DNA of 26,107 nucleotides from Acidimicrobiia bacterium (GTDB lineage: Bacteria > Actinomycetota > Acidimicrobiia > Spongiisociales > UBA5794), in the NCBI GenBank assembly GCA_036447125.1, contig JAZFUH010000056.1, forward strand, positions 1 to 26,107, in the 5' to 3' direction. The position numbers and the translations under genes are program-made. This document shows positions 1 to 24,224 of this stretch, piece after piece (positions within the stretch are counted from its first letter, which is position 1; every line of letters begins with the position of its first letter). The notes under the pieces were generated by a model. That model did not search any database. It worked only from the letters and a program-made list of their open reading frames with translations, and was not told the DNA's origin.

Positions 1-664
1 CCGAAGCGCCCATCTCCGCTTCAATCCGACCCGAAACCATGATGAGTTGCCGCTCGGCGACGGCCGTCGCAACCGCGAGGTTCTGCTCGACGAGTAGAAC
101 GGCGTGTCCCTCTGCGACCAACGTGTGACAGGTCTCGATCAGTTGATCAAGTATCGCCGGTGCAAGGCCCTCGGAGGGTTCGTCCATTATGACCAAAGGG
201 GCGTTCAACAACAGAGCCCGTCCGATTGCGAGCATCTGCTGTTCGCCACCGGAGAGGGCGGCACCAGAAATCTTGCGCCGCTCCGTAAGTCGCGGGAACA
301 ACTCGTACACCGCTTCCTTGGTCCAGCGTTGTCCCTGTGTCCCTTTGGCCAGCATCTCTAGGTGCTCGTCAACGGACAGCGATCGAAAAAGCCGTCTGCC
401 TTGGGGCACGTATCCGATGCCGAGCGCTGCGACCTTGTGCGGTTTCCTCCCAACGAGCTCTTCGCCACTGAGCTTGATAGACCCCCCCATTGCGGGAACG
501 AGCCCCATGATGGTCTCGCACAAAGTGGTCTTGCCCATGCCGTTGCGTCCAAGGACCGCGACTGCTTCGAGACCCATTGAGAAGTTGATATCGAAGAGCA
601 CCTTCGCCGTTCCGTAACCCGAAACTAGGTCTTTCACCACAAGAATGGGGGTGGCGTCACTCAT
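1..664 (-). CDS. livF: Branched-chain amino acid-type ABC transporter ATP-binding subunit (LivF-like), C-terminus beyond the left edge
   Basis: Not in the ORF track because it runs off the edge. Manual translation from ATG at 664: MSDATPILVVKDLVSGYGTAKVLFDI...GRNGMGKTT (Walker A)...GYVPQGRRLF...LLVEQNLAVA. Start overlaps the last codons of livG. Confidence 0.93.
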   Translation of the reverse strand, partial: MSDATPILVVKDLVSGYGTAKVLFDINFSMGLEAVAVLGRNGMGKTTLCETIMGLVPAMGGSIKLSGEELVGRKPHKVAALGIGYVPQGRRLFRSLSVDEHLEMLAKGTQGQRWTKEAVYELFPRLTERRKISGAALSGGEQQMLAIGRALLLNAPLVIMDEPSEGLAPAILDQLIETCHTLVAEGHAVLLVEQNLAVATAVAERQLIMVSGRIEAEMGAS

Positions 665-1424
665 GGCTGCCGATCCTTCCCAGGTAGATATCGTGGACCA
701 ATTGGTTGGCCCGTACCTCCGTTGGGGTTCCTTCGGCGACAATCTGTCCATCGTGCATCACGATCACTCGATCCGCGACGGTCAGCGCCACCTCCATGTC
801 GTGTTCGATGATGATCAGTGTGATTGAATCTTCGAGGTTCAGCAGCATTTCGGTGAGGCGCTGCCGCTCCCCACGCGACAGCCCAGAAGCCGGTTCGTCG
901 AGCAGGAGCAGCGATGGGTCGACCGACATGGCCATGCCCACTTCGAGTTGGCGCTGTTCGCCGTGCGACAAAGAGTCCACCTTCTGGCTGAGTTTCTCAC
1001 CGAGCCAGACTCGTTCAGCCGCTTCACGGGCGCGCAGCCTGAGGCCGACATCCCGCTTGGTGTTGAAGAGGCGCAAATGGCCCCCTTCTTTGCCGACAAT
1101 TGCCACGTAGAGGTTGTCTTCCACCGTCATCCCAGCGAACAAACTTGTCCGTTGGTAGGTGCGTGCCACACCCAGACGCGGACGCATTCTGGCAGGTGCA
1201 GTACTTACATCGCGACCATCGATCATCACCAACCCCACTGTCGGCGCAAAGTCGCCGGCGATGATGTTGAAAAGTGTGGTCTTCCCTGCACCGTTCGGCC
1301 CAAGGATTGCAAGGCGTTCGCCTTGCGCGACATCGAAATCGATGCCGCGCAAGGCATGTACGCCTCCGAAGGCCATTTCAATCCCACTGAGTTGCAGGAT
1401 CTGAGCTGTGTCTGTTGTAGCCAC
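657..1424 (-). CDS. livG: Branched-chain amino acid-type ABC transporter ATP-binding subunit (LivG-like)
   Basis: GPNGAGKTT Walker A, LSHGEQRQLE signature variant, LLLLDEPASG Walker B, IIIEHDM H-loop; GTG start with GAGG upstream. Confidence 0.95.
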   Translation of the reverse strand: MATTDTAQILQLSGIEMAFGGVHALRGIDFDVAQGERLAILGPNGAGKTTLFNIIAGDFAPTVGLVMIDGRDVSTAPARMRPRLGVARTYQRTSLFAGMTVEDNLYVAIVGKEGGHLRLFNTKRDVGLRLRAREAAERVWLGEKLSQKVDSLSHGEQRQLEVGMAMSVDPSLLLLDEPASGLSRGERQRLTEMLLNLEDSITLIIIEHDMEVALTVADRVIVMHDGQIVAEGTPTEVRANQLVHDIYLGRIGSHE

Positions 1425-1462
1425 GCCTCTGGCCTTCCTCGTTACTCGTTTACGTTTCTCGA

Positions 1463-2908
1463 TCAGCCCTGTGGAACGCCATCAACCACCGAAATGGAAT
1501 TGCCAACCCACGCCAGGTCTCTCGTATCACAACCAGGAACGGTTCGGCTCGGCATGCTGCCCTGAGCGAAGGTCCCACCGAATGTCTGGTCAACTGTCGG
1601 GATGACAGCCACCGTGGACAGACCAAGGGTGCCATCGTCCAGAGTTACGAACTGACGAACGTACTGATCCTGAATCGCCTGACGGTTGTCATCGAGCGTC
1701 GTCGAGCCATAGGGACCCGCAAGTACGAGGCTGCCCAACGCACTCTGCAGTGCGGCCTGATCGTCGGAAATGTTACCGCCAACGGCTTCCAGACCCTCGA
1801 TCAGCGCCTTCGCTGCGAGGTAGTAGTTGACAAGGAAGCCCGAATGCGCCTGAGGCCCAGCCTCGCCGAATGGCGGAATGGTGTCATAGTGCTTATCGAT
1901 GATCGCAGTGTGTGCTTCGACACTATCGAGCTTCAGATCTCCAGCCGTGCCGAAGCCACCAATGTAGGCGCCTTCCATCGACGGATCCATGCTTCCCGCT
2001 GCAAACTCCCAGAAGAGATTGCCCATGTGTTGGGTAGGCGTAACGGGACCCTTGGCGTCTTCAAACGCCTTGAGTGCAGGCAACGTACCCGAACCACCGA
2101 CTACCCAGAAGTAGCCGTCAACTTCGTCTGGATCCGGCAGCTGGCCAGCGAACGACGAGTAGTCGGTCGTGTTGAGCGGCGGGAACACCCGTGAGATGAC
2201 CTCTCCACCAGCTGCGCAGAACTCTGCGATGAATCCGGCGCCTGAGGTCCAAGCGAAGCTGTAGTCATCCATGATGACCGCGGCGGTCTTCCACCCCAAA
2301 TCGTTGAACGCGACGTCTCCGGTTCCTGCATTCCATTGAGCTCCGTCCGAGTTATACCGGAAGAAGTTCGGCGCCTGCACCTCGAGCGTGGTGTCCATCG
2401 CTCCAGCAGAACCGTTGATGAACGTCTGTGATGGATGGTCCTTTGCATAGTTGGCTACCGCGATCGACTCATCACCGGACAGTGGTCCAATCATGATGTC
2501 ACCATCGAGTTGCTCCATAAGGCGACGCGTCTCTTTGATTGCTGTATCGGCAGTGTCATCACCACATCCGATACCAACCAACTCAACGGGCACTCCCGCT
2601 ATAGAAGCACCTGTGAAGCCTTCGGTGGGGTCATCCGGATTCGTGATGGTGGCACCGGCGTACTCGGCAAAGGCCGCACCGACGCCAGCCATGTCTTGGC
2701 CGTGGAAGTCCCCGAAGGCGCCCGCACACTCCGACAGCACAGCCAGCTTGATGACCTCGGTACCTCCACTGGTCGTAGCTGTGGTAGCCGATCCTCCAAC
2801 GGTGGTTGTGGTGTCTGAGCTATCGCTGCAAGCCGCGGCAAACAGAGCCATGACTGCGACCAACACAAGCAACCTCACCGCTCTCAGACGGTGTTTTGCA
2901 ATATTCAC
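1463..2908 (-). CDS. ABC transporter substrate-binding lipoprotein, LIV/periplasmic binding protein type 1 family
   Basis: Basic N-terminus, hydrophobic core and lipobox LFAAAC; Ser/Thr-rich linker; LivJ-type motifs IGPLSGDESIAVA and DDYSFAW; AGGAG SD before GTG at 2908; lies between permeases and ATPases. Confidence 0.92.
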   Translation of the reverse strand: MNIAKHRLRAVRLLVLVAVMALFAAACSDSSDTTTTVGGSATTATTSGGTEVIKLAVLSECAGAFGDFHGQDMAGVGAAFAEYAGATITNPDDPTEGFTGASIAGVPVELVGIGCGDDTADTAIKETRRLMEQLDGDIMIGPLSGDESIAVANYAKDHPSQTFINGSAGAMDTTLEVQAPNFFRYNSDGAQWNAGTGDVAFNDLGWKTAAVIMDDYSFAWTSGAGFIAEFCAAGGEVISRVFPPLNTTDYSSFAGQLPDPDEVDGYFWVVGGSGTLPALKAFEDAKGPVTPTQHMGNLFWEFAAGSMDPSMEGAYIGGFGTAGDLKLDSVEAHTAIIDKHYDTIPPFGEAGPQAHSGFLVNYYLAAKALIEGLEAVGGNISDDQAALQSALGSLVLAGPYGSTTLDDNRQAIQDQYVRQFVTLDDGTLGLSTVAVIPTVDQTFGGTFAQGSMPSRTVPGCDTRDLAWVGNSISVVDGVPQG

Positions 2909-2942
2909 TGTTTCTCCTCTCGCACATATGCTCCCGTGAGCC

Positions 2943-4031
2943 TTACATCATTTCCGAGGATCCACTCCCTGAGTCGTATCCTGGATCTCGTGAGGTATGC
3001 ATCCTTGCGGGTGTCAAGGAGCGGGTTATTCGTTGACCAATTCCGATGAGACCGTCTGGGGACAGCAACACGATGAAAAGAAAGATGAAACCGATGATCG
3101 TGTTGAACCGAGCCTCGCCGAGCCCGATCTGATTCAGCCCAGGCACATCGCGCACATAGTTGTTCGCTACCACAAACACGATGGCACCAACCCAAGCACC
3201 ATCCAGCCGGTTGATGCCACCAATAACGGCGATGATGAGAAGACCCAGTATCGCACCGATCCCGATGGATGCGGGATCGATCTGGCGGTTCCACCAGATA
3301 AAGAGAACCCCGGCGATCGATGCAACGAACCCAGCCAGTGTGAACGCCAGCGTGCGGTGGATCCACAGGTTGTACCCAAGCGAGCTCATCCTGACATGGT
3401 CGTCTCGAATCCCTTGGAGGGCCAGACCGAACGGCGTCCTTGTGATATAGCGAAGAACGAGGTAGACGACGACGCTGATGACAGCTGCGACGTAGTACAG
3501 CCGTTCGGGGAATTGCCCTGGCGTACCGATGAACGGGGGCGATCGCACTTGGTTGACGCCACCGAAACCCGAGAACGTCGTGACCTGACCGAAAAAGTAG
3601 AAGCCGATCACACCGAAGGTGAGCGTGATCATGAGAAAGTAGAGACCAGTCGATCGACTGGCAACGGCACCGAGGACGAACGCCAGAACGGTGGTAATCC
3701 CCACCCCGAGGATCACACCTATCCACGGATCCAACCCGAGGTTGAGGCCCTTGCTGCCACCGGTCGTCACCGCGTTTCCAATCACGAATCCTGTGACACC
3801 GAACATCAACGTCTGCGCCAGTGAGACCATCCCGCCGTACGCCGCAAGAAAGATCAAGCTTGCGGCCACAACCCCGAGGAGCAGAGCCTGAGTGAGAACG
3901 AAGCTGACAAAGAAGTCCGATGTAAAAGCCGGTGCGACAACCAGCCCCACAATGGCGGCCACTTGGACCACCCGCTCGGCCGTGAAGACTCTGCGAGATC
4001 CGAGTTCGGGGGCGGCTCGTGCGGCAGTCAC
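2943..4031 (-). CDS. livM: Branched-chain amino acid-type ABC transporter permease (LivM-like)
   Basis: Motifs GGMVSLAQ, GLYFLMITLTFG, FGLALQGIRDD...RMSSLGYN, IAVIGGINRLDG. Start placed at GTG 4031, which overlaps the livH stop (GTGA); the ORF-track extension to 4241 overlaps livH and is unlikely. Confidence 0.92.
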   Translation of the reverse strand: MTAARAAPELGSRRVFTAERVVQVAAIVGLVVAPAFTSDFFVSFVLTQALLLGVVAASLIFLAAYGGMVSLAQTLMFGVTGFVIGNAVTTGGSKGLNLGLDPWIGVILGVGITTVLAFVLGAVASRSTGLYFLMITLTFGVIGFYFFGQVTTFSGFGGVNQVRSPPFIGTPGQFPERLYYVAAVISVVVYLVLRYITRTPFGLALQGIRDDHVRMSSLGYNLWIHRTLAFTLAGFVASIAGVLFIWWNRQIDPASIGIGAILGLLIIAVIGGINRLDGAWVGAIVFVVANNYVRDVPGLNQIGLGEARFNTIIGFIFLFIVLLSPDGLIGIGQRITRSLTPARMHTSRDPGYDSGSGSSEMM

Positions 4032-5095
4032 TCTGGCTCTCCAAACAAACCGTAAGGCCGCCATGCCAACACCGCTCCAAGCAGGACGAAGGTGAAAATA
4101 ATCGAGTAGTTCGTGAACCCTGCTGGAAGATACGCCGGTGCAAACGCGGTAACAGTGCCAAGGAGCAAGGAACCTGCGAGGGCACCGGTGAGCGAACCCA
4201 ACCCGCCCACGATCACAACGATGATCGAGTTGAGGAGCCATTGGCCATCAACTCCCGCTGCCAACCCTGCAAACGACCCGCCCATCACCCCACCCATGCC
4301 AGCGAGGGCCGACCCAACGAGGAAGGCGAGTCCAAATACCCACTGTACGTTGATGCCAAGGGCTTGGACCATGGATGTGTCGTCGACACCGGCGCGAATG
4401 ATCATCCCCGTCCTGGTCTTCTGAAGCCAGCCCCACAGTGCAATCCCAACGACAATGGCGAATCCGAGCATGAAGAGGCGGGTTACAGAGTAGCGAATCC
4501 CAAACACCACGACAGCGTTGTCGATCAGGCCCGGCCATTGAATGTCAACGCCGATTCCGCCAAACCAAGCCACCATCAAGTCGGCGAGGATCACCGAGAT
4601 CGCAATAGTGATCAGCGTCTCGCGCATGTCCTGCCCCTGGAACTTGCGAAGAAACAACTGCTGCATGATCAAGCCCAAGACGCCAGTAATCATCGCCGCA
4701 AGCAAGAGCGGCAACACCCAATCAATCACCCCGACATCGGACCCAAGGATGTTTCGTGTCTTGCCAACCATCGTCTTCTGAAACTCAAGGGCAAGGTACC
4801 CGCCGAGCAAGAAGAACGAGCCGTGGGCGAGATTCACAACCCGCATCAGCCCAAAGATGAGGGTGAACCCGGAGGCGACGATGAAATAGAGACCGGCGAT
4901 CGTGAGCGAATTGAGAACGACCACGACAAAATCTGCCGGTTCGGACAGCAGCGGCTCGGCCGGGGTACCGTTGGCGAAGACGAGAACCCACGCGGCGAGA
5001 CTCGCCGCGACGCTCCATCCTGCCACGAGCGCAGTCCATTGCACCGTCGAGCGCTGACTCGACTTCTTCATCTTGCGCGCGGTTGTTGCTGTCAA
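4028..5095 (-). CDS. livH: Branched-chain amino acid-type ABC transporter permease (LivH-like)
   Basis: Motifs SGFTLIFGLMRVVNLAHG, GMIIRAGVDD...LGINV, VVIVGGLGSLTG, RPYGLFG. Start uncertain: TTG 5095 (GGAGGAG upstream) or ATG 5071. Confidence 0.9.
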   Translation of the reverse strand: MTATTARKMKKSSQRSTVQWTALVAGWSVAASLAAWVLVFANGTPAEPLLSEPADFVVVVLNSLTIAGLYFIVASGFTLIFGLMRVVNLAHGSFFLLGGYLALEFQKTMVGKTRNILGSDVGVIDWVLPLLLAAMITGVLGLIMQQLFLRKFQGQDMRETLITIAISVILADLMVAWFGGIGVDIQWPGLIDNAVVVFGIRYSVTRLFMLGFAIVVGIALWGWLQKTRTGMIIRAGVDDTSMVQALGINVQWVFGLAFLVGSALAGMGGVMGGSFAGLAAGVDGQWLLNSIIVVIVGGLGSLTGALAGSLLLGTVTAFAPAYLPAGFTNYSIIFTFVLLGAVLAWRPYGLFGEPE

Positions 5096-5150: not shown

Positions 5151-5762
5151 CTAGCCGATGCCGGCGACCACCGAATCTACATCGGTGACCGTCGCCACGT
5201 TTTGCAGTGCATAGTTGATCGAGGCGTTTTGCCAATCGGCGCTCATTGTGGAGCACGCGTCCTCTGGCACGACCATGTAGTAGCCCTTGTCCGCCCCAGT
5301 GCGGGCAGTGTGCTCGATCGACATGTTGGTCCAAGCGCCACTGACGATGATCGTGTCACGTCCGGTGCCGGCGAGGATGTTTTCGAGATTGGTCCCTTGC
5401 CATGCACTCATTCGCGTCTTCTCGACGACGAAGTCGCCTTCATGCGATTCAAGGCCATCGGCTGGGGCCGCGCCCCATGTGCCCCTCACCAAGGCACCAT
5501 CGGCAACACCTTCGAAGAGCGGTGCGTTCAGTTTCAGTCCAGGGGCGCCAGCCTCAACGATGTACCACACGTGGATGACGGGCACGCCTTTGGATCGGCA
5601 TGCTGCGGCCAGTCGCTGCACGTTTGCAACCACGTTCTGTTCACGTGCGTGATCTGGAGCGCCCGACTCAGCGAACGCGCCCCCATCGGTAATGACGTCA
5701 TTTTGTAGGTCTTGCACAATCAGTGCGCAGCGATTGGCATCAAGTGTGAGTTCGTCGGTCAT
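5151..5762 (-). CDS. Isochorismatase/cysteine hydrolase family protein, Ser variant
   Basis: LIVQDLQND (catalytic Asp), VVEKTRMSAW (catalytic Lys), SGAWTNMSIEHTARTGADKGY (Ser where the family usually has Cys), EDACS; AAGGGAG SD. Confidence 0.92.
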   Translation of the reverse strand: MTDELTLDANRCALIVQDLQNDVITDGGAFAESGAPDHAREQNVVANVQRLAAACRSKGVPVIHVWYIVEAGAPGLKLNAPLFEGVADGALVRGTWGAAPADGLESHEGDFVVEKTRMSAWQGTNLENILAGTGRDTIIVSGAWTNMSIEHTARTGADKGYYMVVPEDACSTMSADWQNASINYALQNVATVTDVDSVVAGIG

Positions 5763-5813: not shown

Positions 5814-6728
5814 TCAGCCCATGTACAACTCGCGATGGGGACCCACCTTCGTTCGAATCGTGTAGAGCGAAGACGTGCTCGGCATATACAACGTGTGCCA
5901 GTCGTCTCCACCCCATGTGAGGTTGCCCACGTTCTGGGGCACCTTCACCGCGCCGATGTGCGTGCCACCGGTGTCGAACACCCACACGCCACCGGGACCC
6001 GTGACCCAGATGTTCCCGCGTTCATCGCACTTCATTCCGTCTGGGATCCCCTCTTCGATCACGCCGGAACCGATGTTGTCAGCGAACCGCCGACCATTTG
6101 CGATACTGCCGTCAGCGTTCACGTCGTAGACATCGATGAGAGCGTTCGGTGTGTCGTTGATGTAGAGAAGTGACTCGTCAGGTGAGAAGCAGAGGCCGTT
6201 CGGCTGTTCGTACTTATCACGATCGACGATCAGCTGAGAGTCGCCACCCCCCGGGGGAACTCGAAAAACTCCCTGCCAACCAAGGTCGCGCTCACGTTCG
6301 AATCCGAACACAGGCATGCGGCCATACCACGGGTCCGAAAAGTAGATCGATCCATCTCGGCGCACACACACATCGTTGGGACTATTGAGTTCCTTGCCCT
6401 CAAAGTGCGAAGCGATCGTCTCGATGGTCCCGTCCGGGCGTTCGCGAACGAGCGATGAAGTCACATGTTCACACACGATCAGGTTCAGGTCACCGTCATA
6501 GGTCATCCCGTTGCACTTGTTCGACGGGTTTCGCATCTCGGTGACGGTGCCATCCGGCGAGTACTTCCGCCGCACATCGCCAGGCATGTCCGAGAACAGG
6601 AGGTAGCCGTCGGTCGGATGCCAGATGGGGCCCTCAGTAAAGGTGAACCCCTTCGCCACTTCCACCAGTTGCTCATCGGCGTCGATCAGATTCCACATTG
6701 CGTCTGAACGCGCGTCCACATCACCCAC
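5814..6728 (-). CDS. SMP-30/gluconolactonase/LRE family six-bladed beta-propeller (lactonase-like)
   Basis: FTFTEGPIWHP, LNSPND, PNGLCFSPDE, PDGMKCDERGN motifs. Start placed at GTG 6728 (AGGAG SD 5 nt upstream); the ORF-track extension to 7400 overlaps the opposite-strand FAD subunit gene. Confidence 0.93.
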   Translation of the reverse strand: MGDVDARSDAMWNLIDADEQLVEVAKGFTFTEGPIWHPTDGYLLFSDMPGDVRRKYSPDGTVTEMRNPSNKCNGMTYDGDLNLIVCEHVTSSLVRERPDGTIETIASHFEGKELNSPNDVCVRRDGSIYFSDPWYGRMPVFGFERERDLGWQGVFRVPPGGGDSQLIVDRDKYEQPNGLCFSPDESLLYINDTPNALIDVYDVNADGSIANGRRFADNIGSGVIEEGIPDGMKCDERGNIWVTGPGGVWVFDTGGTHIGAVKVPQNVGNLTWGGDDWHTLYMPSTSSLYTIRTKVGPHRELYMG

Positions 6729-7658: not shown

Positions 7659-8170
7659 ATATCCGATTGAACGGCGGCACTGTTGACATCAAGAGTCCGC
7701 CTCTCACGTCGCTCCTTACTGTGCTGCGCGAAGAACTCAATGTCACGAGTCCGAAGCGAGGTTGCGACCAGGGCGGCTGCGGCGCCTGCACCGTTCTCGT
7801 CGATGGCACACCCCAGAGGACGTGCTTGACCCCGGTTGCCGCCGTCGACGGGGCAGAAATCACGACCATTGAAGGACTGGGAGACTCCGAGAACCTCACA
7901 GCCGTCCAGCAATCGTTCCTACACCACGGCGCAGCCCAGTGCGGATTCTGCACCCCGTCGATGATCATCGCCGCCACGGCGTATCTCGACGGTGATGGCA
8001 GTGCCGAACCGGAAGCGATCCAGGAGGCGCTCAAGGGCCACCTCTGCCGCTGCACCGGGTACCAGAAGATCATCAGCGCCGTATCGGCTGCCGCCACGAA
8101 ATCCGAGTTCGACCTGACATCGATGACGGCGAGTCCCAATACCGTGATCTTGCCTGGAGGTGACACATGA
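7655..8170 (+). CDS. Molybdenum hydroxylase [2Fe-2S] subunit (CoxS/NdhS family)
   Basis: GCDQGGCGACTVLVDG...C and QCGFCTP...LCRCTGY cysteine motifs; ATG 7655 overlaps the upstream stop (ATGA) with GGAGG SD. Confidence 0.96.
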   Translation: MNIRLNGGTVDIKSPPLTSLLTVLREELNVTSPKRGCDQGGCGACTVLVDGTPQRTCLTPVAAVDGAEITTIEGLGDSENLTAVQQSFLHHGAAQCGFCTPSMIIAATAYLDGDGSAEPEAIQEALKGHLCRCTGYQKIISAVSAAATKSEFDLTSMTASPNTVILPGGDT

Positions 8171-18363: not shown

Positions 18364-19569
18364 ATGAGCGCGGTCTACGTGATCGGGACGGGTGACACCA
18401 AGTCGGAGGAACTCAAGTACATCAAGTCTGTAATCGAGGCGAGAGGCGTCGAAGCTGTATTCGTCGATGTCGGTACGTCCAACCACGAGTCGACGGCCGA
18501 CGTCATACCAGACGAAGTTGCGGCGTATCACCCCAATGGGCCAGACGCCGTTCGATCGGACGACCGGGGTAAAGCGATCGGAGCGATGGCTGTGGCCCTT
18601 GAGGCCTACGTCAAGGCCAACGAGGACGATGTCGCAGGCATCATCGGCGCAGGCGGCTCTGGCGGGACCTCGCTCGTCACACCTGCGATGCGGGCGCTCC
18701 CCGTGGGTGTCCCCAAGGTGATGGTCTCGACGGTCGCGTCGGCCAATGTCGCACCATACGTGGGGCCAGCGGACATTGCCATGATCTACTCAGTCACCGA
18801 TGTCGCCGGCCTCAACCGGATCACCCGTCAGGTGCTCGGGAACGCTGCAAACGCCATCGCAGGGATGGCGGCGAATCCGATCCCGCCCTCCGACTCGGAC
18901 CTTCCCGCCGTCGGGTTGACGATGTTCGGCGTCACGACGCTGCTCGTGACGGGCCTGGCAGAGCGGCTCAGTGATACCTACGACCCGCTGGTCTTCCACG
19001 CGACAGGCACGGGCGGGAAGTCGATGGAGAAACTCACCGATTCCGGGATGCTGCGTGCCGTCCTCGACATGACCACCACAGAGATCGCAGACCACCTGGT
19101 CGGCGGCGTGTTCCCTTCCGGTCCCGACCGAATGGACGTCATCGCCCGGACGAAAATCCCGTACGTGGGCTCCGTTGGTGCGGTCGACATGGTGAATTTC
19201 GGAGCGATCGAGACGGTGCCGCCACAGTTCGCTGATCGGAACCTTCTCGTCCACAACCCGCAGGTCACGCTCATGAGGACCACGGTCGAGGAGAATGTCG
19301 CCGTCGGCGAGTTCATTGCACGGAAGCTGAACGCGTGCAACGGGCCGGTGCGCTTCCTGCTGCCGGAGGGCGGCGTGAGCCTCATCGATGCCGAAGGCCA
19401 ACCATTCCACGATCCCGAAGCCGATGAAGCACTCTTCGCCGCCATCGAAGCGAATGTGGACCAGACGGCCGACCGCGTAGTGATGCGGGTGCCAGCGAAC
19501 ATCAACGACGAGACATTCATCGATGCCGTCATGGCCTGTTTCGATGACGTGATGAAGGGAGCAAACTGA
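18364..19569 (+). CDS. Tm-1-like ATP-binding domain protein (UPF0261)
   Basis: N-terminal [81 protein letters not shown]. Confidence 0.93.
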
Positions 19570-20414
19570 TGCGGATACCCCGTGCAGAGATCATGGGTCG
19601 ATTCCACGACATGATAAAGAGGAAGGAACCGATCGTCGGCGGTGGGGCAGGAACGGGGCTCTCTGCGAAGTGGGAGGAGGCAGGGGGGATCGACCTCATC
19701 GTCATCTACAACTCGGGCCGCTACCGGATGGCAGGCAGGGGTTCGTTGGCGGGACTGCTCGCGTATGGCAACGCCAACGAGATCGTCGTTGATATGGCCT
19801 CCGAGGTGCTCCCGGTCGTCAAGCACACACCGGTCCTTGCCGGCGTCAACGGGACCGACCCCTTCTACCAGCCAGAGGTGCTCCTCCCAGAGTTGACAAG
19901 GATCGGCTTCTCCGGCGTCCAGAACTTTCCAACTGTGGGGTTGATAGACGGAGTGTTCCGACAGAACCTCGAGGAGACAGGCATGGGATACGGTCTTGAG
20001 GTCGAGATGATCGGGGTCGCAGCCAACCTGGACATGCTGACCACGCCGTACGCGTTCAGCGAGGAGGATGCCATTGCGATGACCGAGGCCGGAGCCGACA
20101 TCATCGTGTGCCACATGGGGCTGACAACCGGAGGCAGTATCGGCGCTGAGACAGCCGCGAACCTCGATGACTGCGTCGAGAAGATCGACGCATGGTCGGC
20201 CGCGGCACGGTCGGTGAGGGATGATGTCATAGTGCTGTGCCATGGTGGCCCGATCGCGATGCCAGCCGACGCCTCGTACGTTCTCAACCGGTCCAAGAAA
20301 ATCGACGGCTTCTATGGTGCGTCGAGCATGGAACGAATACCGACCGAGCAGGCGCTCAAATCACAGACAGAGGCCTTCAAGGCCATCGCGTTCTCAGGAG
20401 GGACGGAATCATGA
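19569..20414 (+). CDS. Phosphoenolpyruvate-hydrolase-like TIM barrel (PF09370, C-terminal domain of plant Tm-1)
   Basis: [83 protein letters not shown]; TGATG coupling. Confidence 0.93.
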
Positions 20415-20815
20415 CATTCATGCCATCAAGCGGAGTGGAGACGACCGAGTTCGAGTGGGGTTCGATCGGGTGGCTGGCGCGACCCGACAACGTGCCGGAA
20501 TGCACCGGCATGTGCGCCCTCGACGTCCGCCTCAACCCCGGTCAGGCCCACGACTTCCACACCCATCCGGATCAGGAAGAGATGATCATAATCAAGAGCG
20601 GTTCGGTCGAGCAGTGGATCGACGGCAAGAAGATGCGCCTCAACGCTGGCGACGCATGCTTCATTCCGAAGAACATCGTTCATGCGAGTTTCGTCGACGA
20701 AGATGCAGACGAACCTGCACTGATCCTCGTCGTGCTGTCGCCGAGCCACGGTGACGAGGGGTACTACGCCCACGATATGTCAACCGAGGAGCCGTGGGCG
20801 TCGATACGTTCGTAG
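20411..20815 (+). CDS. Cupin domain metalloprotein
   Basis: [11 protein letters not shown] and [12 protein letters not shown] cupin motifs 1 and 2; ATG 20411 overlaps the TIM-barrel stop (ATGA) with GGAGG SD. Confidence 0.92.
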
Positions 20816-20996: not shown

Positions 20997-21302
20997 ATGC
21001 TCAAGCTCATCTCCCTCCTCAAACGTGCGGATGGGATCTCCAAGGACGAGTTCCGCACTTGGGTCACGGAGGACCACGCCCCCTTTGCAAAGGCCCTGCC
21101 CGGCCTGCGGAGGTACGTCGTGAACGTGACCGTCGACGACGACGAGTTTCCGTACGACGCCGTCAACGAGATGTGGTTCGACAGCGAGGAAGCACGGGCT
21201 GCGGCCTTTGCGAGCGACGCAGGAGCGGCCGCAGGAGGCGACGCCGCCGCACATGCGTCCGACCGCGTACATCTCAAGATGACCGAGTACGTCCAGTTCT
21301 AG
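20997..21302 (+). CDS. EthD family dimeric alpha/beta-barrel protein
   Basis: MLKLISLLKRADGISKDEF...HAPFAKALPGLRRYVVN...YDAVNEMWFDS; GGAG SD before ATG 20997. Confidence 0.88.
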   Translation: MLKLISLLKRADGISKDEFRTWVTEDHAPFAKALPGLRRYVVNVTVDDDEFPYDAVNEMWFDSEEARAAAFASDAGAAAGGDAAAHASDRVHLKMTEYVQF

Positions 21303-22142
21303 ATGACGAGCATCGCCGACCTCGCGGACGGCCTTGCCGCTGAGCGGTACGTCGCCGATCGAGGCCTCCTCACGGCGATTCGGCTAGCGCTCAAGCTCGG
21401 CCGTCCTCTGTTGCTCGAAGGGGAGCCAGGGGTCGGCAAGACGGATCTGGCGCGTGCGCTTGCGGGCGTGGTCGGCAGGGAACTCATCCGGCTCCAGTGT
21501 TACGAGGGCCTTGACTCTGTCCACGCCCTCTACGAGTGGAACTACCCAAAGCAGCTCCTCGCCGCCCGTGCGGGAGACTCCGTACCATCGCATATATACG
21601 GCGATGAGTTCCTCCTTGAGCGGCCGCTACTGCAGACGCTGCGCTCCGAGGACGGCGCGGTGCTCCTAATCGACGAGATCGACCGCTCCGACGAACCATT
21701 CGAGGCGTTCCTGTTGGAGTTCCTCAGCGAGTTTCAGGTGACGATTCCCGAGCGCGGGACGATCGAGGCAACCGTAACGCCGATCGTCGTCCTGACCTCG
21801 AACCGGACGAGGGAACTCCACGACGCCCTGAAGCGTCGGTGCCTTTATCACTGGATCGACCTTCCTGGCGCGGAACGCGAGCGCGAAATCTTGCAGCTCC
21901 AGGTGCCAGGGATCGGCAAGGATGCTGCCGCTCACGTAGTCGCAGCGGTCAGGAACATCAGGGACAGGAAGCTGATCAAGCCACCGGGCCTCGCCGAGTC
22001 GATCGAGTGGGCAAGGGGCGCCATGGTCCTCGAGTCCGATGGGGAAGCGTGGCCCGCAGCTCTGAGGCGGTCCCTGGGACTCCTCCTCAAGGAGCGAGAG
22101 GACATTCTCTCGATCGAGGATCTCACCCTCGACGCCGTCTGA
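21303..22142 (+). CDS. coxD: MoxR-family AAA+ ATPase (CoxD-like)
   Basis: LLLEGEPGVGKT Walker A, LIRLQCYEGLD...ALYEWNY, LLIDEIDRSD Walker B, LTSNRTRELHDALKRRC. Confidence 0.92.
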   Translation: MTSIADLADGLAAERYVADRGLLTAIRLALKLGRPLLLEGEPGVGKTDLARALAGVVGRELIRLQCYEGLDSVHALYEWNYPKQLLAARAGDSVPSHIYGDEFLLERPLLQTLRSEDGAVLLIDEIDRSDEPFEAFLLEFLSEFQVTIPERGTIEATVTPIVVLTSNRTRELHDALKRRCLYHWIDLPGAEREREILQLQVPGIGKDAAAHVVAAVRNIRDRKLIKPPGLAESIEWARGAMVLESDGEAWPAALRRSLGLLLKEREDILSIEDLTLDAV

Positions 22143-22143
22143 C

Positions 22144-23319
22144 ATGGGGGAACAGGCAGAGGCGCATCTCCATCTGCTGATCCGGTCCCTGCGGGCGGTG
22201 GGTCTATCGATCCCACCCCAGAAGGCGCTCGACTTCCTCCTTGGCCTCACCGCCACTCACCTCACCGATGTCGACGACATCTACTGGGTGGGCCGCGTGA
22301 CCCTCGTGTCGAACGCCGAGGACATCCACCGATTCGATGAAGTCTTTCGACTCTGGTGCTCCGACACCATCACGCTGATCGACGAGTCGGCGATCGTCGA
22401 CGAGGAGAGCGAGGCGACAACCCTGATGGCGGGGTTCAAGGACGACTCGCCCGAGCTCGCGTTCGACGATGGCACGGGCAAGGATGCCAGTGGACACGAG
22501 CTGCTCGGGCGGCGCCTGTTCGGGAGGACACCACGCTCGGTACGCAAGCAATGTTCGGCGATCTCGGATGCCGCTCGGGTTGCCGTTCCTCAGATCAGGA
22601 TACGTCGGCTACGCCGTTCACACCGAGGACACGAACTCGACCTGCGACGGACCCTTGCCACGGCCCTTGGCAGCGACGGTGAGATCATAGACCTGTGTTT
22701 CCGGACCGCGCCGAAACGCCCCCGTCGCATGCTGATCCTGATCGATGTCTCGGGATCGCTCAAGGCGAACAGCGCCGACTACATACGGTTCGCCCACGCG
22801 GTTGTTCGGGGCACGGACCGCTGTGAGGTATTCACCTTCGGTACGAGGCTCACACAGGTGACGCCAGCGCTGCGTAACGATGATGTCGACGACTCCCTGG
22901 AGGCGCTTGCGGATCTGGTCCTCGATTTCGACGGCGGGACGAAGATCGGCCAAGCACTCGACACCCTGCTGTCGTCGAGCAGGTGGCGAACGCTCGCATC
23001 TGGGGCAGAGGTCATCGTCCTGTCTGACGGACTCGAGACAGGGTCACCCGATCTCATCCGGTCGACGGTCGAACGCCTGTCAAGAGTGGCGCATCGACTG
23101 ATCTGGCTCACCCCGCTGGCCTCGTCGGAGGAATTTGCGCCCGCCACACGGGCGATGGTGGCGATCGAGCCGTTCCTCGACCGCATTGGCTCCAGCGGAT
23201 CGCTCGCCGAGCTCCATGCGGAACTGGTCAACGTCGCCCATCTCGAGCACCGTCCGAGACGAAGGGCGAGCGCCCAGACTTCGTATCGGCTGCCCGATCC
23301 AGAGGCCGTCACCCCATGA
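22144..23319 (+). CDS. coxE: VWA domain protein (CoxE-like)
   Basis: LDLRRTL, LIDVSGSL (MIDAS), EVFTFGTRLT, DFDGGTKIG, VLSDGLETG, LIWLTPL; directly follows the CoxD-like gene. Confidence 0.9.
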   Translation: MGEQAEAHLHLLIRSLRAVGLSIPPQKALDFLLGLTATHLTDVDDIYWVGRVTLVSNAEDIHRFDEVFRLWCSDTITLIDESAIVDEESEATTLMAGFKDDSPELAFDDGTGKDASGHELLGRRLFGRTPRSVRKQCSAISDAARVAVPQIRIRRLRRSHRGHELDLRRTLATALGSDGEIIDLCFRTAPKRPRRMLILIDVSGSLKANSADYIRFAHAVVRGTDRCEVFTFGTRLTQVTPALRNDDVDDSLEALADLVLDFDGGTKIGQALDTLLSSSRWRTLASGAEVIVLSDGLETGSPDLIRSTVERLSRVAHRLIWLTPLASSEEFAPATRAMVAIEPFLDRIGSSGSLAELHAELVNVAHLEHRPRRRASAQTSYRLPDPEAVTP

Positions 23320-24224
23320 CCTCGCTGAAGGCGCTCCCCGTCATCGATTGCCACCACCACATATGGCGCCTCGACGATCTGCCGTGGCTGTCCGGCGAGA
23401 TCGTCCCGAGGATCTTCGGCCCGTACGAGCCGATCCAGAGGGACTACCTGATCGACGAGTACCGGGCTGAGGCACAGGCCGCCGGCGTCGGTAGGAGCGT
23501 CTACGTTCAGGTGAACTGGCCTGCGGACGGCGCGGTCGACGAGGTGCGATGGGTCAATCAGGTGGCGATGGCGACCGGATGGCCGCACGCGATCATCGGA
23601 TCGGCCGACATGTACGACCCAAGGTGTGGTGAGGTATTCGAGGAGCAGGCACGGCTCTCCTCACTCGTGCGAGGCACCAGGTTGCAGTTGCATTGGCACG
23701 AGCGCGAGCTGTATCGGTTCGCGTCGGCGCCGGACAGGATGAACGACCCCATCTTCCGGCAGAACCTCGGGTTACTCCCTGGTCTGGGTTGGCTGTTTGA
23801 GCTCCAGGTGTTCCCGTCCCAGATGGCCGAGGCCGCCCGCATGGTCGGCGACCACCCTGACACGACGTTCGTGCTGGTTCACGCCGGCATGCTCGAGAGC
23901 ACGGAGCCGGAGGCTGTGGATCGGTGGGAGAAGGGCATGGCGGCCCTCGCCGACCACGACAATGTCGTGGTCAAACTGACAGGCCTCGGCACGTTCGTCA
24001 GGCAGGTCGATTCGGGCCTCATCGGGATGATCACCGAGCGCTGTCTCGAGTTGTTCGGGCCGGACCGGTGCATGTGGGGAAGCAACTTCCCCGTCGAGAA
24101 GCTATGGACGGGATATGGGGCACTGCTCGACACCTATCGATCGTGTCTGTCCGCGTATTCCACTGACACGCAAGCAGCGGTCTTCGGGGGCACAGCGGCA
24201 CGAGTGTATGGTCTCGCTGATTGA
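23316..24224 (+). CDS. Amidohydrolase_2 family protein (COG3618-like, sugar-lactonase related), Asn variant
   Basis: IDCHHHIW metal motif, SVYVQ, VLVHAGM, VKLTG, CMWGSNFP (family usually GSDWP); ATGA coupling to coxE. Confidence 0.9.
   Translation: MTSLKALPVIDCHHHIWRLDDLPWLSGEIVPRIFGPYEPIQRDYLIDEYRAEAQAAGVGRSVYVQVNWPADGAVDEVRWVNQVAMATGWPHAIIGSADMYDPRCGEVFEEQARLSSLVRGTRLQLHWHERELYRFASAPDRMNDPIFRQNLGLLPGLGWLFELQVFPSQMAEAARMVGDHPDTTFVLVHAGMLESTEPEAVDRWEKGMAALADHDNVVVKLTGLGTFVRQVDSGLIGMITERCLELFGPDRCMWGSNFPVEKLWTGYGALLDTYRSCLSAYSTDTQAAVFGGTAARVYGLAD

What the first reader, a model, noticed from the sequence alone, without database searches (positions are those of the whole stretch)
1..24224. Complete, apparently uncharacterised catabolic system joining a split Mo-hydroxylase, its chaperones, split Tm-1 homologues and two non-canonical hydrolases
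Seen: two divergent, tightly packed transcription units with many 1-4 nt start/stop overlaps. They encode uptake (LIV-type ABC), a four-subunit Mo hydroxylase, CoxD/CoxE-like maturation factors, two lactonase-fold enzymes, a Ser-type isochorismatase, a cupin, EthD and the UPF0261/PF09370 pair. Established: none of these matches a characterised pathway as a set, and bacterial UPF0261/PF09370 proteins have no assigned reaction that I know of. Inference: this is one dedicated pathway for an unknown small molecule (N-heterocycle, furan/pyrone or modified sugar acid), oxidised by the Mo enzyme, ring-opened and funnelled to pyruvate/lactate. I recall a similar gene set in alphaproteobacterial genomes, unverified.
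Basis: partly seen in the sequence, partly recalled or inferred. Interest (0 to 1): 0.72.

Follow-up and report, generated by a model that had tools for sequence, protein, structure and literature searches.

The report
Mosaic molybdenum-hydroxylase and kinase-pair catabolic island
A marine actinobacterial contig carries a rearranged copy of an uncharacterised nutrient-breakdown gene set (importer, Tm-1-like kinase pair, split molybdenum hydroxylase, unusual ring-opening hydrolases) that also occurs in culturable alphaproteobacteria, so its unknown substrate and the chemistry of the Tm-1 protein family can now be tested.

Summary
The locus is not complete: the contig cuts the last ABC gene, and other assemblies continue with an extended SDR, an RraA-like aldolase and LarA or diol-dehydratase genes. 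It is also not just two units, because two conserved reverse-strand ORFs split the plus strand.

Comparative genomics shows a mosaic.
- **Mo core:** LIV-type ABC importer, SGL lactonase, Ser-type isochorismatase, NdhFSLM-like split Mo hydroxylase, CoxD/CoxE, Asn-type Amidohydro_2, SDR, FAH and UPF0261/PF09370. It recurs in other Acidimicrobiia and as a single gene string on Yoonia and Shinella plasmids. There SGL is fused to the isochorismatase, and in Yoonia LivF to UPF0261.
- **Sugar-type module:** GFO, a 414-aa TIM barrel, UPF0261, PF09370 and a cupin. It recurs without the Mo enzyme, and a GFO/cupin/UPF0261/PF09370 form without the TIM barrel lies in Rhizobium.
- **Lineage-specific:** LutC/LdhH, EthD and the small ORFs.

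"One pathway" therefore holds for the core, not for all 24 kb. UPF0261 now has a reported activity (MarK aryl kinase), and the 3hpd cluster shows a kinase-dependent Mo hydroxylation. The substrate remains unknown. The scan had already flagged the alphaproteobacterial version on other DNA.

The parts
1..664 (-). LivF-type ABC ATPase. Its 3' end (about 23 codons) is cut off by the contig end.
   Evidence: PF00005. The full 244-aa gene is seen on other assemblies of the same locus.
657..1376 (-). LivG-type ABC ATPase
   Evidence: PF00005 and PF12399. Gene call of 239 aa.
1463..2908 (-). LIV-type solute-binding protein (Peripla_BP_6)
   Evidence: In the tree it falls in a 100/100 clade with binding proteins linked to the Mo hydroxylase, and that clade is nested within those linked to GFO/TIM. 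It is the only such binding protein found in this genome.
2943..5095 (-). LivM-like (2943-4064) and LivH-like (4028-5095) permeases
   Evidence: PF02653. Gene calls.
5151..5762 (-). Isochorismatase-family hydrolase with Ser in place of the nucleophilic Cys
   Evidence: PF00857. GAWTNMSIE aligns with GFLTNCCVE of 3KL2. The motif is invariant in 11 orthologues and in Shinella and Yoonia.
5814..6728 (-). SMP-30/gluconolactonase-fold (SGL) lactonase-like enzyme
   Evidence: PF08450. PDB relatives 3E5Z and 3DR2. It is fused to the isochorismatase domain in Yoonia and Shinella.
6879..10622 (+). Four-gene Mo hydroxylase: FAD subunit 6879-7658, 2Fe-2S subunit 7655-8170, MoL 8167-9534, MoM 9534-10622
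   Evidence: The best PDB hits are NdhL and NdhM of 3HRD, with the same split point. The motifs GGGFGGKVD, AMRGFG and KGIGE are conserved.
10648..12255 (+). Classical SDR (10648-11355) and FAH-family hydrolase (11413-12255)
   Evidence: FAH scores 318 bits against the diketo-deoxy-L-rhamnonate hydrolase model, whose cutoff is 500. Orthologues lie next to MoM in G262, G238, L131 and Yoonia.
12499..13043 (-). Two small ORFs of unknown function (122 aa and 59 aa, 4-nt overlap)
   Evidence: Gene calls. The 122-aa ORF is 73-79% conserved next to FAH in G262, L131 and L132. It matches no family.
13197..15769 (+). LutC-like LUD protein (13197-13661) and LdhH-like LutB-LutA fusion (13658-15769)
   Evidence: LdhH scores 664 bits, below the cutoff of 800. 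Neither gene was found in the related loci.
15865..18311 (+). GFO/IDH/MocA dehydrogenase (15865-17070) and a 414-aa xylose-isomerase-like TIM barrel (17067-18311)
   Evidence: GFO is nearest to 4H3V, levoglucosan DH 6A3F and scyllo-inositol DH 5YA8. The TIM model resembles ketose 3-epimerases and UlaE. The pair is conserved in about 50 of the 80 loci.
18364..20815 (+). UPF0261 (18364-19569), PF09370 TIM barrel (19569-20414) and a cupin (20411-20815)
   Evidence: UPF0261 scores 315 bits to Tm-1 and 208 bits to MarK 9MPY. PF09370 scores 421 bits to 2P10. The cupin is orthologous to the cupin in GFO/TIM-linked loci, not to the cupin that follows MoM elsewhere.
20997..21302 (+). EthD-family protein
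   Evidence: PF07110 and TIGR02118.
21303..24224 (+). CoxD-like MoxR AAA (21303-22142), CoxE-like VWA (22144-23319) and Amidohydro_2 with GSNFP (23316-24224)
   Evidence: The same CoxD-CoxE-Amidohydro_2 order directly follows MoM in Yoonia, Shinella, Sinorhizobium and Nonomuraea. The Asn is conserved in five orthologues.

Best explanation
The window is a rearranged, truncated actinobacterial (marine Acidimicrobiia) version of an uncharacterised catabolic system that is conserved across phyla. Here it is interleaved with a second conserved module and a few lineage-specific genes.

Shown by family assignment and conserved synteny:
- The Mo core is a LIV-type ABC importer, an SGL lactonase-fold enzyme plus a Ser-type isochorismatase-like hydrolase (one fused protein in alphaproteobacteria), an NdhFSLM-type split Mo hydroxylase with CoxD/CoxE maturation factors, an Amidohydro_2 that has Asn in the GSNFP motif, where I recall the family's catalytic Asp to lie, an SDR, an FAH hydrolase, and the Tm-1-like UPF0261/PF09370 pair.
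- A separate sugar/cyclitol-type module (GFO dehydrogenase, 414-aa keto-sugar-epimerase-like TIM barrel, UPF0261, PF09370, cupin) occurs widely without the Mo enzyme and has been spliced into the core here.

Inferred mechanism:
1. An acidic ring compound bearing a hydroxyl group (a pyridinol, pyrone or sugar-derived enol) is imported.
2. UPF0261/PF09370 phosphorylates its hydroxyl group with ATP. The precedents are the MarK aryl kinase and the kinase-dependent 3-hydroxypyridine hydroxylation in the 3hpd cluster.
3. The Mo enzyme hydroxylates the ring using water, so no oxygenase is needed.
4. The three hydrolase folds open the ring.
5. The SDR oxidises the product to a 2,4-diketo acid, and FAH cleaves it to pyruvate plus a short hydroxy acid.
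6. In this lineage that acid is lactate, oxidised on the spot by LutC/LdhH.

My odds are about 0.75 that the core genes act on one substrate, about 0.4 that the substrate is a hydroxylated N/O-heteroaromatic acid, and lower for each individual step.
For: Gene families.

Real synteny: the same gene order appears in independent assemblies.

Core co-occurrence:
- G262 and G238 keep FAH-SDR-MoM-MoL-FeS-FAD divergent from SGL-isochorismatase-ABC-extended SDR-RraA, and G238 adds UPF0261/PF09370.
- G301 holds the Mo genes, SGL, isochorismatase, ABC, GFO, TIM, UPF0261 and PF09370 within 23 kb in a different order.
- Metagenomic loci seeded with MoM carry CoxD (20 loci), SGL (13) and isochorismatase (8) (contexts).
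- The Yoonia plasmid string has orthologues of 17 window genes, with LivF::UPF0261 and SGL::isochorismatase fused.
- Shinella has the same core, and its fusion is confirmed by Pfam.
- CoxD-CoxE-Amidohydro_2 follows MoM in four cultured genera.

Shared active-site signatures across phyla.

Shared transporter lineage. No second such binding protein is found in this genome.

Rarity argues against chance adjacency: the MoM orthologue is in 2 and the TIM orthologue in 3 of 300 class genomes, with no overlap.

Precedents: MarK kinase, and HpdA needing orf9/orf10 kinase-like genes.

FAH is nearest to the diketo-deoxyrhamnonate hydrolase model, and LdhH to the L-lactate dehydrogenase model.
Against: - No substrate, product or expression data exist for any member.
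- UPF0261/PF09370 at 72-78% identity sits on 212 plasmid records, against 5 for MoM homologues and 2 for the Ser-isochorismatase. The pair is therefore a general module, not specific to the Mo enzyme.
- G262 has the Mo genes, SGL, isochorismatase and ABC, but no UPF0261/PF09370 was found within about 40 kb.
- G262, G238 and G301 lack an Amidohydro_2 orthologue.
- Shinella lacks the SDR and FAH.
- The neighbours of the GFO/TIM module are sugar-acid enzymes: enolase-type and ILVD/EDD dehydratases and an FGGY kinase. FAH is also nearest to a sugar-acid enzyme, which fits a sugar route at least as well.
- MarK works without a PF09370 partner, and the window's UPF0261 is closer to plant Tm-1 than to MarK.
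- The 3hpd kinase belongs to a different protein family.
Confidence: 0.5

Rival explanations
1. Oxidative, non-phosphorylative route for a deoxy-sugar, anhydro-sugar or sugar acid. GFO and the TIM barrel oxidise and epimerise the sugar. The Mo enzyme acts as a lactol or aldehyde dehydrogenase, as archaeal glyceraldehyde oxidoreductase does. SGL and Amidohydro_2 are sugar lactonases. The SDR and FAH are the 2-keto-3-deoxy-acid 4-dehydrogenase and the diketo hydrolase, giving pyruvate plus lactate. LarA and LutC/LdhH then handle the lactate.
For: - GFO is nearest to levoglucosan and scyllo-inositol/L-glucose dehydrogenases.
- The TIM fold resembles ketose epimerases.
- FAH scores 318 bits to the diketo-deoxy-L-rhamnonate hydrolase model.
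- Amidohydro_2's only PDB relative is L-fucono-1,5-lactonase, and SGL's relatives are gluconolactonases.
- The Mo subunits also match the glyceraldehyde dehydrogenase models.
- Loci with the GFO module carry sugar-acid dehydratases, FAH and an FGGY kinase.
- In Rhizobium the UPF0261/PF09370 pair sits with GFO, a cupin and a carbohydrate ABC system.
- LarA and its cofactor genes, and an RraA-like aldolase, continue the operon.
Against: - The window has no sugar-acid dehydratase.
- The importer is LIV-type, not a sugar type.
- The closest solved Mo enzyme is nicotinate dehydrogenase.
- The alphaproteobacterial core has no GFO, TIM or dehydratase at all.
- Every equivalog cutoff is missed.
- The role of a Ser-type isochorismatase in a sugar route is unclear.
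Confidence: 0.25
2. One reading: all genes from 1 to 24224 form one complete, dedicated pathway for a single molecule.
For: The genes are tightly packed with translational coupling. The Mo maturation genes CoxD/CoxE lie downstream of GFO-TIM-UPF0261-PF09370-cupin-EthD on the same strand. G301 also joins GFO/TIM to the Mo genes. Only one importer is present.
Against: - The contig is truncated and the operon continues beyond it.
- LutC/LdhH and s59 were not found in related loci. EthD and s122 were found in few.
- GFO/TIM occur without the Mo enzyme in 4 of 5 genomes tested and in 3 class genomes. The Mo core occurs without GFO/TIM in G262, G238, Yoonia and Shinella.
Confidence: 0.1
3. Chance juxtaposition: a genomic island of unrelated accessory operons that share no pathway.
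For: Both modules are rare and patchy in the class, about 1% each. Strains differ at the left flank, with Lar genes in some and diol dehydratase in others. GC content steps from 0.58 to 0.63 across the window. Neighbours vary between loci.
Against: The same set recurs in different orders in two phyla, with two gene fusions linking members. Given 1% frequencies, two genomes holding both modules side by side is unlikely by chance.
Confidence: 0.08

Closest known systems
Alphaproteobacterial gene train of importer, UPF0261/PF09370, flotillin, SRPBCC, split Mo hydroxylase and hydrolases. It is undescribed in the papers searched; this scan flagged it as e1-4210804 and e1-5234663. Examples checked here: Yoonia sp. 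SS1-5 plasmid NZ_CP151764.1 and Shinella zoogloeoides Teo12 plasmid NZ_CP131131.1.
   Same: Orthologues of LivH/M/G/F, UPF0261 (52-54%), PF09370 (68-70%), FeS, MoL, MoM (41-44%), CoxD (54-59%), CoxE, Amidohydro_2 (46%), SGL (51-58%) and Ser-isochorismatase (60-71%) are present in both, and an FAD-subunit homologue (30%) was detected in Yoonia. Yoonia also has the SDR and FAH. The GAWTNMS, GSN(F/Y)P, GGGFGGKVD and AMRGFG signatures are shared.
   Different: The window has no flotillin and no SRPBCC proteins. Its genes are unfused and split into divergent units. It has a solute-binding protein, and it adds GFO, TIM, cupin, LutC/LdhH and EthD. Beyond the contig end lie an extended SDR, RraA and LarA.
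Eubacterium barkeri nicotinate dehydrogenase NdhFSLM (PDB 3HRD)
   Same: It has the same F-S-L-M four-gene layout, with the Mo subunit split at the same point. It is the best solved relative of both halves, at 229 and 192 bits over nearly full length.
   Different: The relationship is distant. None of the nicotinate-fermentation neighbours, which I recall as a reductase, enamidase and B12 mutase, is present. Substrate and selenium dependence are unknown.
3hpd cluster of Ensifer adhaerens HP1 (HpdA1-4 plus orf9/orf10; bioRxiv 10.1101/2020.01.08.898148)
   Same: A Mo hydroxylase for a hydroxylated N-heterocycle works only together with genes for a hydroxyl-phosphorylating, kinase-like system. 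An ABC transporter is in the cluster.
   Different: The kinase there is of the PEP-synthase/dikinase type, not UPF0261. The Mo subunit is unsplit and comes with an SRPBCC subunit. The downstream maleamate pathway (HpdBCDE) is absent here.
MarK (Saro_1862, PDB 9MPY), multiple aromatic kinase of Novosphingobium aromaticivorans (PMC12624787), and tomato Tm-1
   Same: Both have the two UPF0261 domains and the ATP-contacting Lys of the GT-x-DTK motif. Tm-1 fuses UPF0261 to the PF09370 barrel, the same pairing seen here.
   Different: The match to MarK is only 208 bits, against 315 bits to Tm-1. MarK acts as a homodimer without a barrel partner and feeds a carboxylase that is absent here. Tm-1's known role is antiviral.
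Non-phosphorylative L-rhamnose/L-fucose route: 2-keto-3-deoxy-acid 4-dehydrogenase plus 2,4-diketo-3-deoxy-acid hydrolase (e.g. PMC11199699)
   Same: An adjacent SDR and FAH pair. FAH's best family match is the diketo-deoxy-L-rhamnonate hydrolase model. The products would be pyruvate and lactate, and a lactate dehydrogenase lies next door.
   Different: FAH scores 318 bits, below the 500-bit cutoff. The window has no aldonate dehydratase and no sugar 1-dehydrogenase of the usual type.
Levoglucosan pathway LgdA/LgdB1/LgdB2/LgdC (PMC7676230)
   Same: A GFO-family dehydrogenase is paired with a xylose-isomerase-like TIM barrel that acts on the keto-sugar product.
   Different: GFO scores 328 bits against a cutoff of 650. 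The 414-aa TIM barrel has no detectable sequence relative in the PDB.

Membership tests
Xanthine-dehydrogenase-family Mo hydroxylase, NdhFSLM split type | Separate FAD (FAD_binding_5), 2x[2Fe-2S] (Fer2 + Fer2_2), hammerhead + MoCoBD_1 and MoCoBD_2 polypeptides | tested here: met
   Gene calls of 259, 171, 455 and 362 aa.
Xanthine-dehydrogenase-family Mo hydroxylase, NdhFSLM split type | Large subunit split at the NdhL/NdhM boundary | tested here: met
   MoL residues 4-396 align with 3HRD_A 8-389 of 425. MoM residues 3-333 align with 3HRD_B 2-328 of 330. The junction is a 1-nt overlap.
Xanthine-dehydrogenase-family Mo hydroxylase, NdhFSLM split type | Catalytic Glu in the K-G-x-G-E loop | tested here: met
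   KGIGE at MoM residue 290, conserved in orthologues and in the alphaproteobacterial homologues. That this Glu is the catalytic base is from my own knowledge of the family.
Xanthine-dehydrogenase-family Mo hydroxylase, NdhFSLM split type | Nicotinate as substrate; selenium-dependent Mo site | not testable with these tools
   This needs an enzyme assay. The pocket motif GGGFGGKVD has Val where I recall xanthine oxidase having Glu.
UPF0261 / MarK-type ATP-dependent kinase | N- and C-terminal UPF0261 domains and the ATP-contacting Lys (Tm-1 K20 / MarK K16) | tested here: met
   PF06792 and PF23189. GTGDTK aligns with GTADTK of Tm-1. The Lys is invariant in 10 orthologues.
UPF0261 / MarK-type ATP-dependent kinase | Aryl-binding residues of MarK (His219, His304, His348) and kinase activity | not tested
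   No residue-level alignment to 9MPY was made, and activity needs an assay.
Isochorismatase-like cysteine hydrolases (nicotinamidase, RutB, NicF type) | Asp-Lys-Cys catalytic triad | tested here: not met
   Asp (QDLQND) and Lys (EK) are kept, but the Cys position is Ser in every orthologue. It belongs to the fold family, not to the Cys-hydrolase mechanism class.
Amidohydro_2 (cog3618 lactonases, LigI, ACMSD-type decarboxylases) | N-terminal HxH and the conserved Asp of the last strand (G-S-D-x-P type motif, recalled from memory) | tested here: inconclusive
   PF04909 matches over its full length. HHH is present at the N-terminus. The motif reads GSNFP, GTNFP or GSNYP in five orthologues. The equivalence of Asn to the family Asp rests on a recalled motif, not on a structural alignment.
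L-lactate dehydrogenase LdhH/LutABC type | LUD domain + 4Fe-4S dicluster + CCG domains, with a LutC-like partner | tested here: met
   However, the NCBIfam LdhH score is 664, below the equivalog cutoff of 800, so the substrate (lactate or another 2-hydroxy acid) is not settled.
2,4-didehydro-3-deoxy-L-rhamnonate hydrolase (FAH family) | Score above the curated equivalog cutoff | tested here: not met
   318 bits against a cutoff of 500. This is fold and sub-family likeness only.
Levoglucosan dehydrogenase (GFO/IDH/MocA) | Score above the curated equivalog cutoff | tested here: not met
   328 bits against a cutoff of 650, and 297 bits to 6A3F.
CoxD/CoxE maturation pair | MoxR-type AAA ATPase followed by a VWA_CoxE protein, next to Mo hydroxylase genes | tested here: met
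   Orthologues at 52-64% sit beside MoM homologues in many loci. In the window they lie about 10 kb from MoM.

The most novel reading that the evidence does not exclude
The UPF0261/PF09370 (split Tm-1) pair is an ATP-dependent enol/phenol kinase that primes a hydroxylated ring compound for hydroxylation by a split Mo hydroxylase, using water rather than oxygen, followed by purely hydrolytic ring opening. In lineages that add GFO and the TIM barrel, that ring compound is made in the cell from an imported sugar-like acid. This would define a widespread oxygenase-free pathway for ring breakdown and give the first physiological reaction for the Tm-1 family shared by bacteria, archaea and plants.
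Probability: 0.22. Interest if true: 0.8.

Novelty: new variant of a known kind. Interest (0 to 1): 0.58.

Why it matters
- **An orphan family gets an experimental handle.** UPF0261/PF09370 (the two halves of tomato Tm-1) is very widespread and highly conserved. Identity between this marine actinobacterium and rhizobial plasmids is 72-78%, on 212 plasmid records. Only one biochemical activity has been reported for it so far.
- **A coherent gene set is now defined.** This locus and its relatives tie the pair to an importer, a nicotinate-dehydrogenase-like Mo hydroxylase and two conserved hydrolases with unusual residues at expected catalytic positions. Gene fusions show which partners work together.
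- **Culturable carriers exist.** The same core sits in Shinella zoogloeoides Teo12 and Yoonia sp. SS1-5, so the substrate can be found with ordinary genetics and ligand screening.
- **Possible new carbon route.** If the kinase-assisted, oxygenase-free route is right, it would be an undescribed way of mineralising ring compounds in soils and marine sediments.

Tried and rejected
- **Complex prediction, UPF0261 + PF09370:** no verdict, so it is not used as evidence either way.
- **AF2 model of the 122-aa ORF:** pLDDT 37.7, unusable. Its Atlas hits (phage portal proteins, score 0.90, few shared features) are at chance level.
- **Rfam scan of the whole window:** no match.
- **Promoter and terminator scans:** not above the shuffled controls.
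- **Sequencing runs:** no RNA holder is listed. The DNA holders are marine and sediment metagenomes.
- **Literature, no match to the gene set:** PF09370/PF06792, and the combination Mo + isochorismatase + gluconolactonase + cupin, each returned 0 papers.
- **Literature, irrelevant hits:** XylA2 and MadB/MadC papers were off-topic. An ascorbate-catabolism idea gave no usable gene-level match and was dropped.
- **TIM barrel:** no sequence relative in the PDB and none on plasmids.
- **Cupin as a link between modules:** rejected. The window's cupin is only 20% identical to the cupin that follows MoM in Gaiella-like loci.
- **Plus-strand ORFs 12349-12960 and 12932-13315:** rejected as genes. They match no family, have a wrong-frame composition, and are overlapped by the conserved minus-strand ORFs.
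- **N-terminal 224 residues of the 528-aa SGL ORF:** rejected. They overlap the FAD gene.
- **Look-up of ABC_G with the long GTG start:** failed because the real start is the ATG at 1376.

Full report
**Source and gene map**

The window is the whole of contig C56 of a 1.63-Mb, 68%-complete MAG. Its closest relatives by a conserved protein are Acidimicrobiia/Ilumatobacteraceae MAGs. The DNA is held by marine and sediment metagenomes. I built the gene map from Pfam and NCBIfam scans and checked it against independent gene calls on other assemblies of the same locus.

- **Minus strand:** SGL lactonase-fold protein (5814-6728), isochorismatase (5151-5762), LivH/LivM permeases, a Peripla_BP_6 binding protein, LivG, and LivF, which is cut by the contig end.
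- **Plus strand:** FAD, 2Fe-2S, MoL and MoM subunits (6879-10622), SDR and FAH.
- **Minus strand again:** two small ORFs (12499-13043).
- **Plus strand again:** LutC-like, LdhH-like, GFO, a 414-aa TIM barrel, UPF0261, PF09370, cupin, EthD, CoxD-like, CoxE-like and Amidohydro_2, ending at 24224.
- An ECF sigma factor lies further right.

Nine junctions overlap by 1 or 4 nt. The arrangement is not an assembly artefact, because the same order is found on contigs from several runs and in another GenBank assembly.

Those contigs also show that the minus-strand operon continues past base 1. It goes on with an extended SDR (315 aa) and an RraA-like protein, followed either by LarA, a 97-aa ORF, LarE and LarB, or by a second isochorismatase and a B12 diol dehydratase.

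**Corrections to the observation**

- The 528-aa SGL ORF is really 304 aa. Its upstream part overlaps the FAD-subunit gene on the other strand.
- Two long plus-strand ORFs at 12349-13315 are not genes.
- The plus strand is interrupted by two conserved reverse ORFs.
- The cluster is truncated, so "complete" does not hold.

**Does the set co-occur elsewhere?**

*Seeding with the TIM barrel.* This gave 80 loci. About 27 Actinomycetota loci share one co-directional operon: LivH-LivM-SBP-LivG-LivF-GFO-TIM-(XylA2_C-like gene)-UPF0261-PF09370-cupin. None had the Mo hydroxylase within 10 kb.

*Seeding with MoM.* The split subunit has over 1400 relatives at E<1e-60, many of them 75-94% identical. Its recurring neighbours are:
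- the FAD, FeS and MoL genes, always;
- CoxD/CoxE/XdhC;
- SGL;
- the isochorismatase;
- the LIV-type ABC system;
- an SDR;
- a different small cupin;
- a B12 diol dehydratase.

*Sampling the class.* Among 300 sampled genomes, the MoM orthologue is in 2 (G262, G238) and the TIM orthologue in 3 (G198, G276, G014), with no overlap. The same-genus genome G170 has neither.

G262 and G238 keep FAH-SDR-MoM-MoL-FeS-FAD divergent from SGL-isochorismatase-ABC-extended SDR-RraA. G238 adds UPF0261/PF09370 beside FAH, and LarA-LarE-LarB-LarC-CoxG after RraA. G262 adds a PAS-GAF histidine kinase with a LuxR regulator, and the 122-aa ORF.

The Mo core and the GFO module can therefore each exist alone. Four of five genomes carrying the GFO module lack the MoM orthologue, and G262 and G238 lack the TIM barrel.

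**They are nevertheless linked**

- The fifth genome, G301, holds FAH, extended SDR, SDR, MoM, MoL, FeS, FAD, SGL, isochorismatase, RraA, ABC, GFO, TIM, UPF0261 and PF09370 on one 33-kb contig, in an order different from the window.
- The window's binding protein sits in a 100/100 clade of Mo-linked binding proteins, and that clade is nested inside the GFO-linked ones. It is the only such protein found in this genome.
- On the Yoonia sp. SS1-5 plasmid, a single co-directional string encodes an AraC regulator, LivH, LivM, LivG, a LivF::UPF0261 fusion, PF09370, a flotillin, two SRPBCC proteins, FAD, FeS, MoL, MoM, CoxD, CoxE, Amidohydro_2, an MBL-fold lactonase, an SGL::isochorismatase fusion, SDR, FAH and a second SDR.
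- Shinella zoogloeoides Teo12 has the same string up to the SGL::isochorismatase fusion, and Pfam confirms both domains in one 521-aa ORF.
- Sinorhizobium sp. BG8 and Nonomuraea gerenzanensis keep FAD-FeS-MoL-MoM-CoxD-CoxE-Amidohydro_2.
- The order CoxD-CoxE-Amidohydro_2 matches the window. Here the trio has been moved about 10 kb away from MoM by the inserted genes.

**Conserved signatures**

- The Ser that replaces the nucleophilic Cys of isochorismatase-like hydrolases (GAWTNMS[IV]E) is invariant in 11 actinobacterial orthologues and in Shinella and Yoonia. The Asp and Lys of the triad are kept.
- The Amidohydro_2 motif reads GSNFP, GTNFP or GSNYP in all five orthologues. From memory, the family normally has an Asp there.
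- The Mo pocket motifs GGGFGGKVD, AMRGFG and KG(I/P)GE are shared between the actinobacterial and alphaproteobacterial enzymes.

These features argue that the orthologues do the same chemistry across phyla.

**What the parts resemble**

| Part | Nearest known relative |
|---|---|
| MoL, MoM | E. barkeri nicotinate dehydrogenase NdhL/NdhM, same split point |
| UPF0261 | Tomato Tm-1 (315 bits); MarK (208 bits); ATP-contacting Lys kept |
| PF09370 | Mll9387, PDB 2P10 (421 bits) |
| GFO | 4H3V, levoglucosan DH, scyllo-inositol/L-glucose DH |
| TIM barrel | No PDB sequence relative; AF2 model (pLDDT 77) resembles ketose 3-epimerases, UlaE, xylose isomerase |
| SGL | Gluconolactonases 3E5Z and 3DR2 |
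| Amidohydro_2 | L-fucono-1,5-lactonase, distant (66 bits) |
| FAH | Diketo-deoxy-L-rhamnonate hydrolase model, 318 bits (cutoff 500) |
| LdhH-like | L-lactate dehydrogenase model, 664 bits (cutoff 800) |

**Literature**

MarK of Novosphingobium aromaticivorans is an ATP-dependent kinase for the phenolic hydroxyl of acetovanillone and related aromatics, and it functionally replaces the AcvAB/HpeHI dikinases (PMC12624787).

In the 3hpd cluster of Ensifer adhaerens, the Mo hydroxylase HpdA converts 3-hydroxypyridine only when two adjacent dikinase-like genes are present. The authors compare those genes with phenol- and cresol-phosphorylating enzymes. This is a direct precedent for pairing a hydroxyl kinase with a Mo hydroxylase.

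The picolinate pathway joins a Mo dehydrogenase with a decarboxylase (PicC) and a maleamate amidohydrolase (PicF). From my own knowledge these belong to the Amidohydro_2 and isochorismatase families. That pathway also needs oxygenases, which are absent here.

I found no paper describing the present gene set. The library does not cover subscription journals.

**Interpretation**

The best-supported reading is a mosaic.
- A Mo core conserved across phyla imports a ring compound, probably phosphorylates it, hydroxylates it and opens it by hydrolysis.
- In this lineage a sugar/cyclitol-type module (GFO, TIM, cupin, together with the UPF0261/PF09370 pair) has been spliced in.
- Lineage-specific genes for the end products have been added (LutC/LdhH in the window, LarA beyond the contig end).

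The core contains no oxygenase, which fits a route independent of oxygen in sediment organisms.

The main rival is a sugar-acid route in which the Mo enzyme oxidises a lactol or aldehyde. It is favoured by the neighbours of the GFO module (enolase-type and ILVD/EDD dehydratases and an FGGY kinase), by the Rhizobium pRL9 context of the pair (GFO, cupin and a carbohydrate ABC system), and by the nearest matches of FAH and the lactonases.

Against any exclusive tie between the pair and the Mo enzyme, PF09370 homologues at 72-78% identity lie on 212 plasmid records. MoM homologues lie on 5 and the Ser-isochorismatase on 2.

**Relation to earlier scan notes**

The alphaproteobacterial gene train had already been flagged on other DNA (e1-4210804, e1-5234663), as had LivF::UPF0261 fusions. 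I verified the train independently on two plasmids. I also add three points: the actinobacterial locus is a rearranged relative of it; a distinct GFO/TIM module is joined to it in at least two genomes; and the two unusual hydrolase motifs are conserved across phyla.

Noticed in passing
window 17067-18311; L002-L081: The 414-aa xylose-isomerase-like TIM barrel is 70-81% identical across Actinomycetota, Acidobacteriota, Myxococcota and others, with at least 574 relatives. It has no sequence relative in the PDB and no NCBIfam model. Outside Actinomycetota it often stands with only a GFO that is 42-44% identical to the window's GFO.
   Followed up: partly
beyond window base 1 (contigs); L122:629-7297: The minus-strand operon continues with an extended SDR, an RraA-like aldolase and a LarA homologue together with the nickel-pincer cofactor genes (LarE, LarB, and in G238 LarC and CoxG). 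Near-identical strains carry a second isochorismatase and a B12 diol dehydratase there instead.
   Followed up: partly
L217:3343-5505 and 18823-20418; L219:18924-20489: Two gene fusions occur in alphaproteobacteria. LivF::UPF0261 in Yoonia is annotated as an 'ABC transporter permease'. SGL::isochorismatase is a 521-531 aa protein in Yoonia and Shinella. Neither train contains a detectable solute-binding protein gene.
   Followed up: partly
window 12499-13043: Two translationally coupled small ORFs (122 and 59 aa) lie on the opposite strand. The 122-aa ORF is 73-79% conserved and always sits next to FAH in G262, L131 and L132. It has no family, no usable model, several conserved His and Trp residues and a conserved HGH motif.
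   Followed up: partly
L128, L129, L130, L134, L139, L150 and others; L119:14641-16956: A B12-dependent diol/glycerol dehydratase with fused large and medium subunits, 66-74% identical to the G262 copy used as query, recurs near the split Mo hydroxylase in 14 metagenomic loci. It is often accompanied by a 4-OT tautomerase, a glyoxalase-fold protein, an SDR, FAH and an aldehyde dehydrogenase.
   Followed up: no
L214:11250-12584; L215:11337-12677: Most loci with the GFO module carry a 444-446 aa XylA2_C (PF27526) gene between the TIM barrel and UPF0261/PF09370. It is missing from the window and from G301.
   Followed up: no
L119:3419-5832; L214:1050-3367: A PAS(-GAF)-HisKA_3 histidine kinase with a LuxR-type response regulator sits at the head of both a Mo-core locus (G262) and a GFO-module locus. 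It is a candidate shared regulator. The window has no regulator inside the cluster.
   Followed up: no
window 24225-26107: A 1.15-kb stretch after Amidohydro_2 has no recognisable gene. It is followed by an ECF sigma factor (25379-25912) and a 46-aa ORF at the contig end.
   Followed up: no
L228 (Rhizobium johnstonii 3841 pRL9, 206243-225058): In this model rhizobium the UPF0261/PF09370 pair (PF09370 73% identical) is divergent from a GntR regulator, a carbohydrate ABC system, a GFO oxidoreductase and a cupin. This gives a genetically tractable place to test the GFO-linked context of the pair.
   Followed up: no
window 1-26107: GC content rises from about 0.58-0.59 over the ABC/hydrolase genes (1-6000) to 0.62-0.64 over the plus-strand genes, and drops again after 24000.
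   Followed up: no
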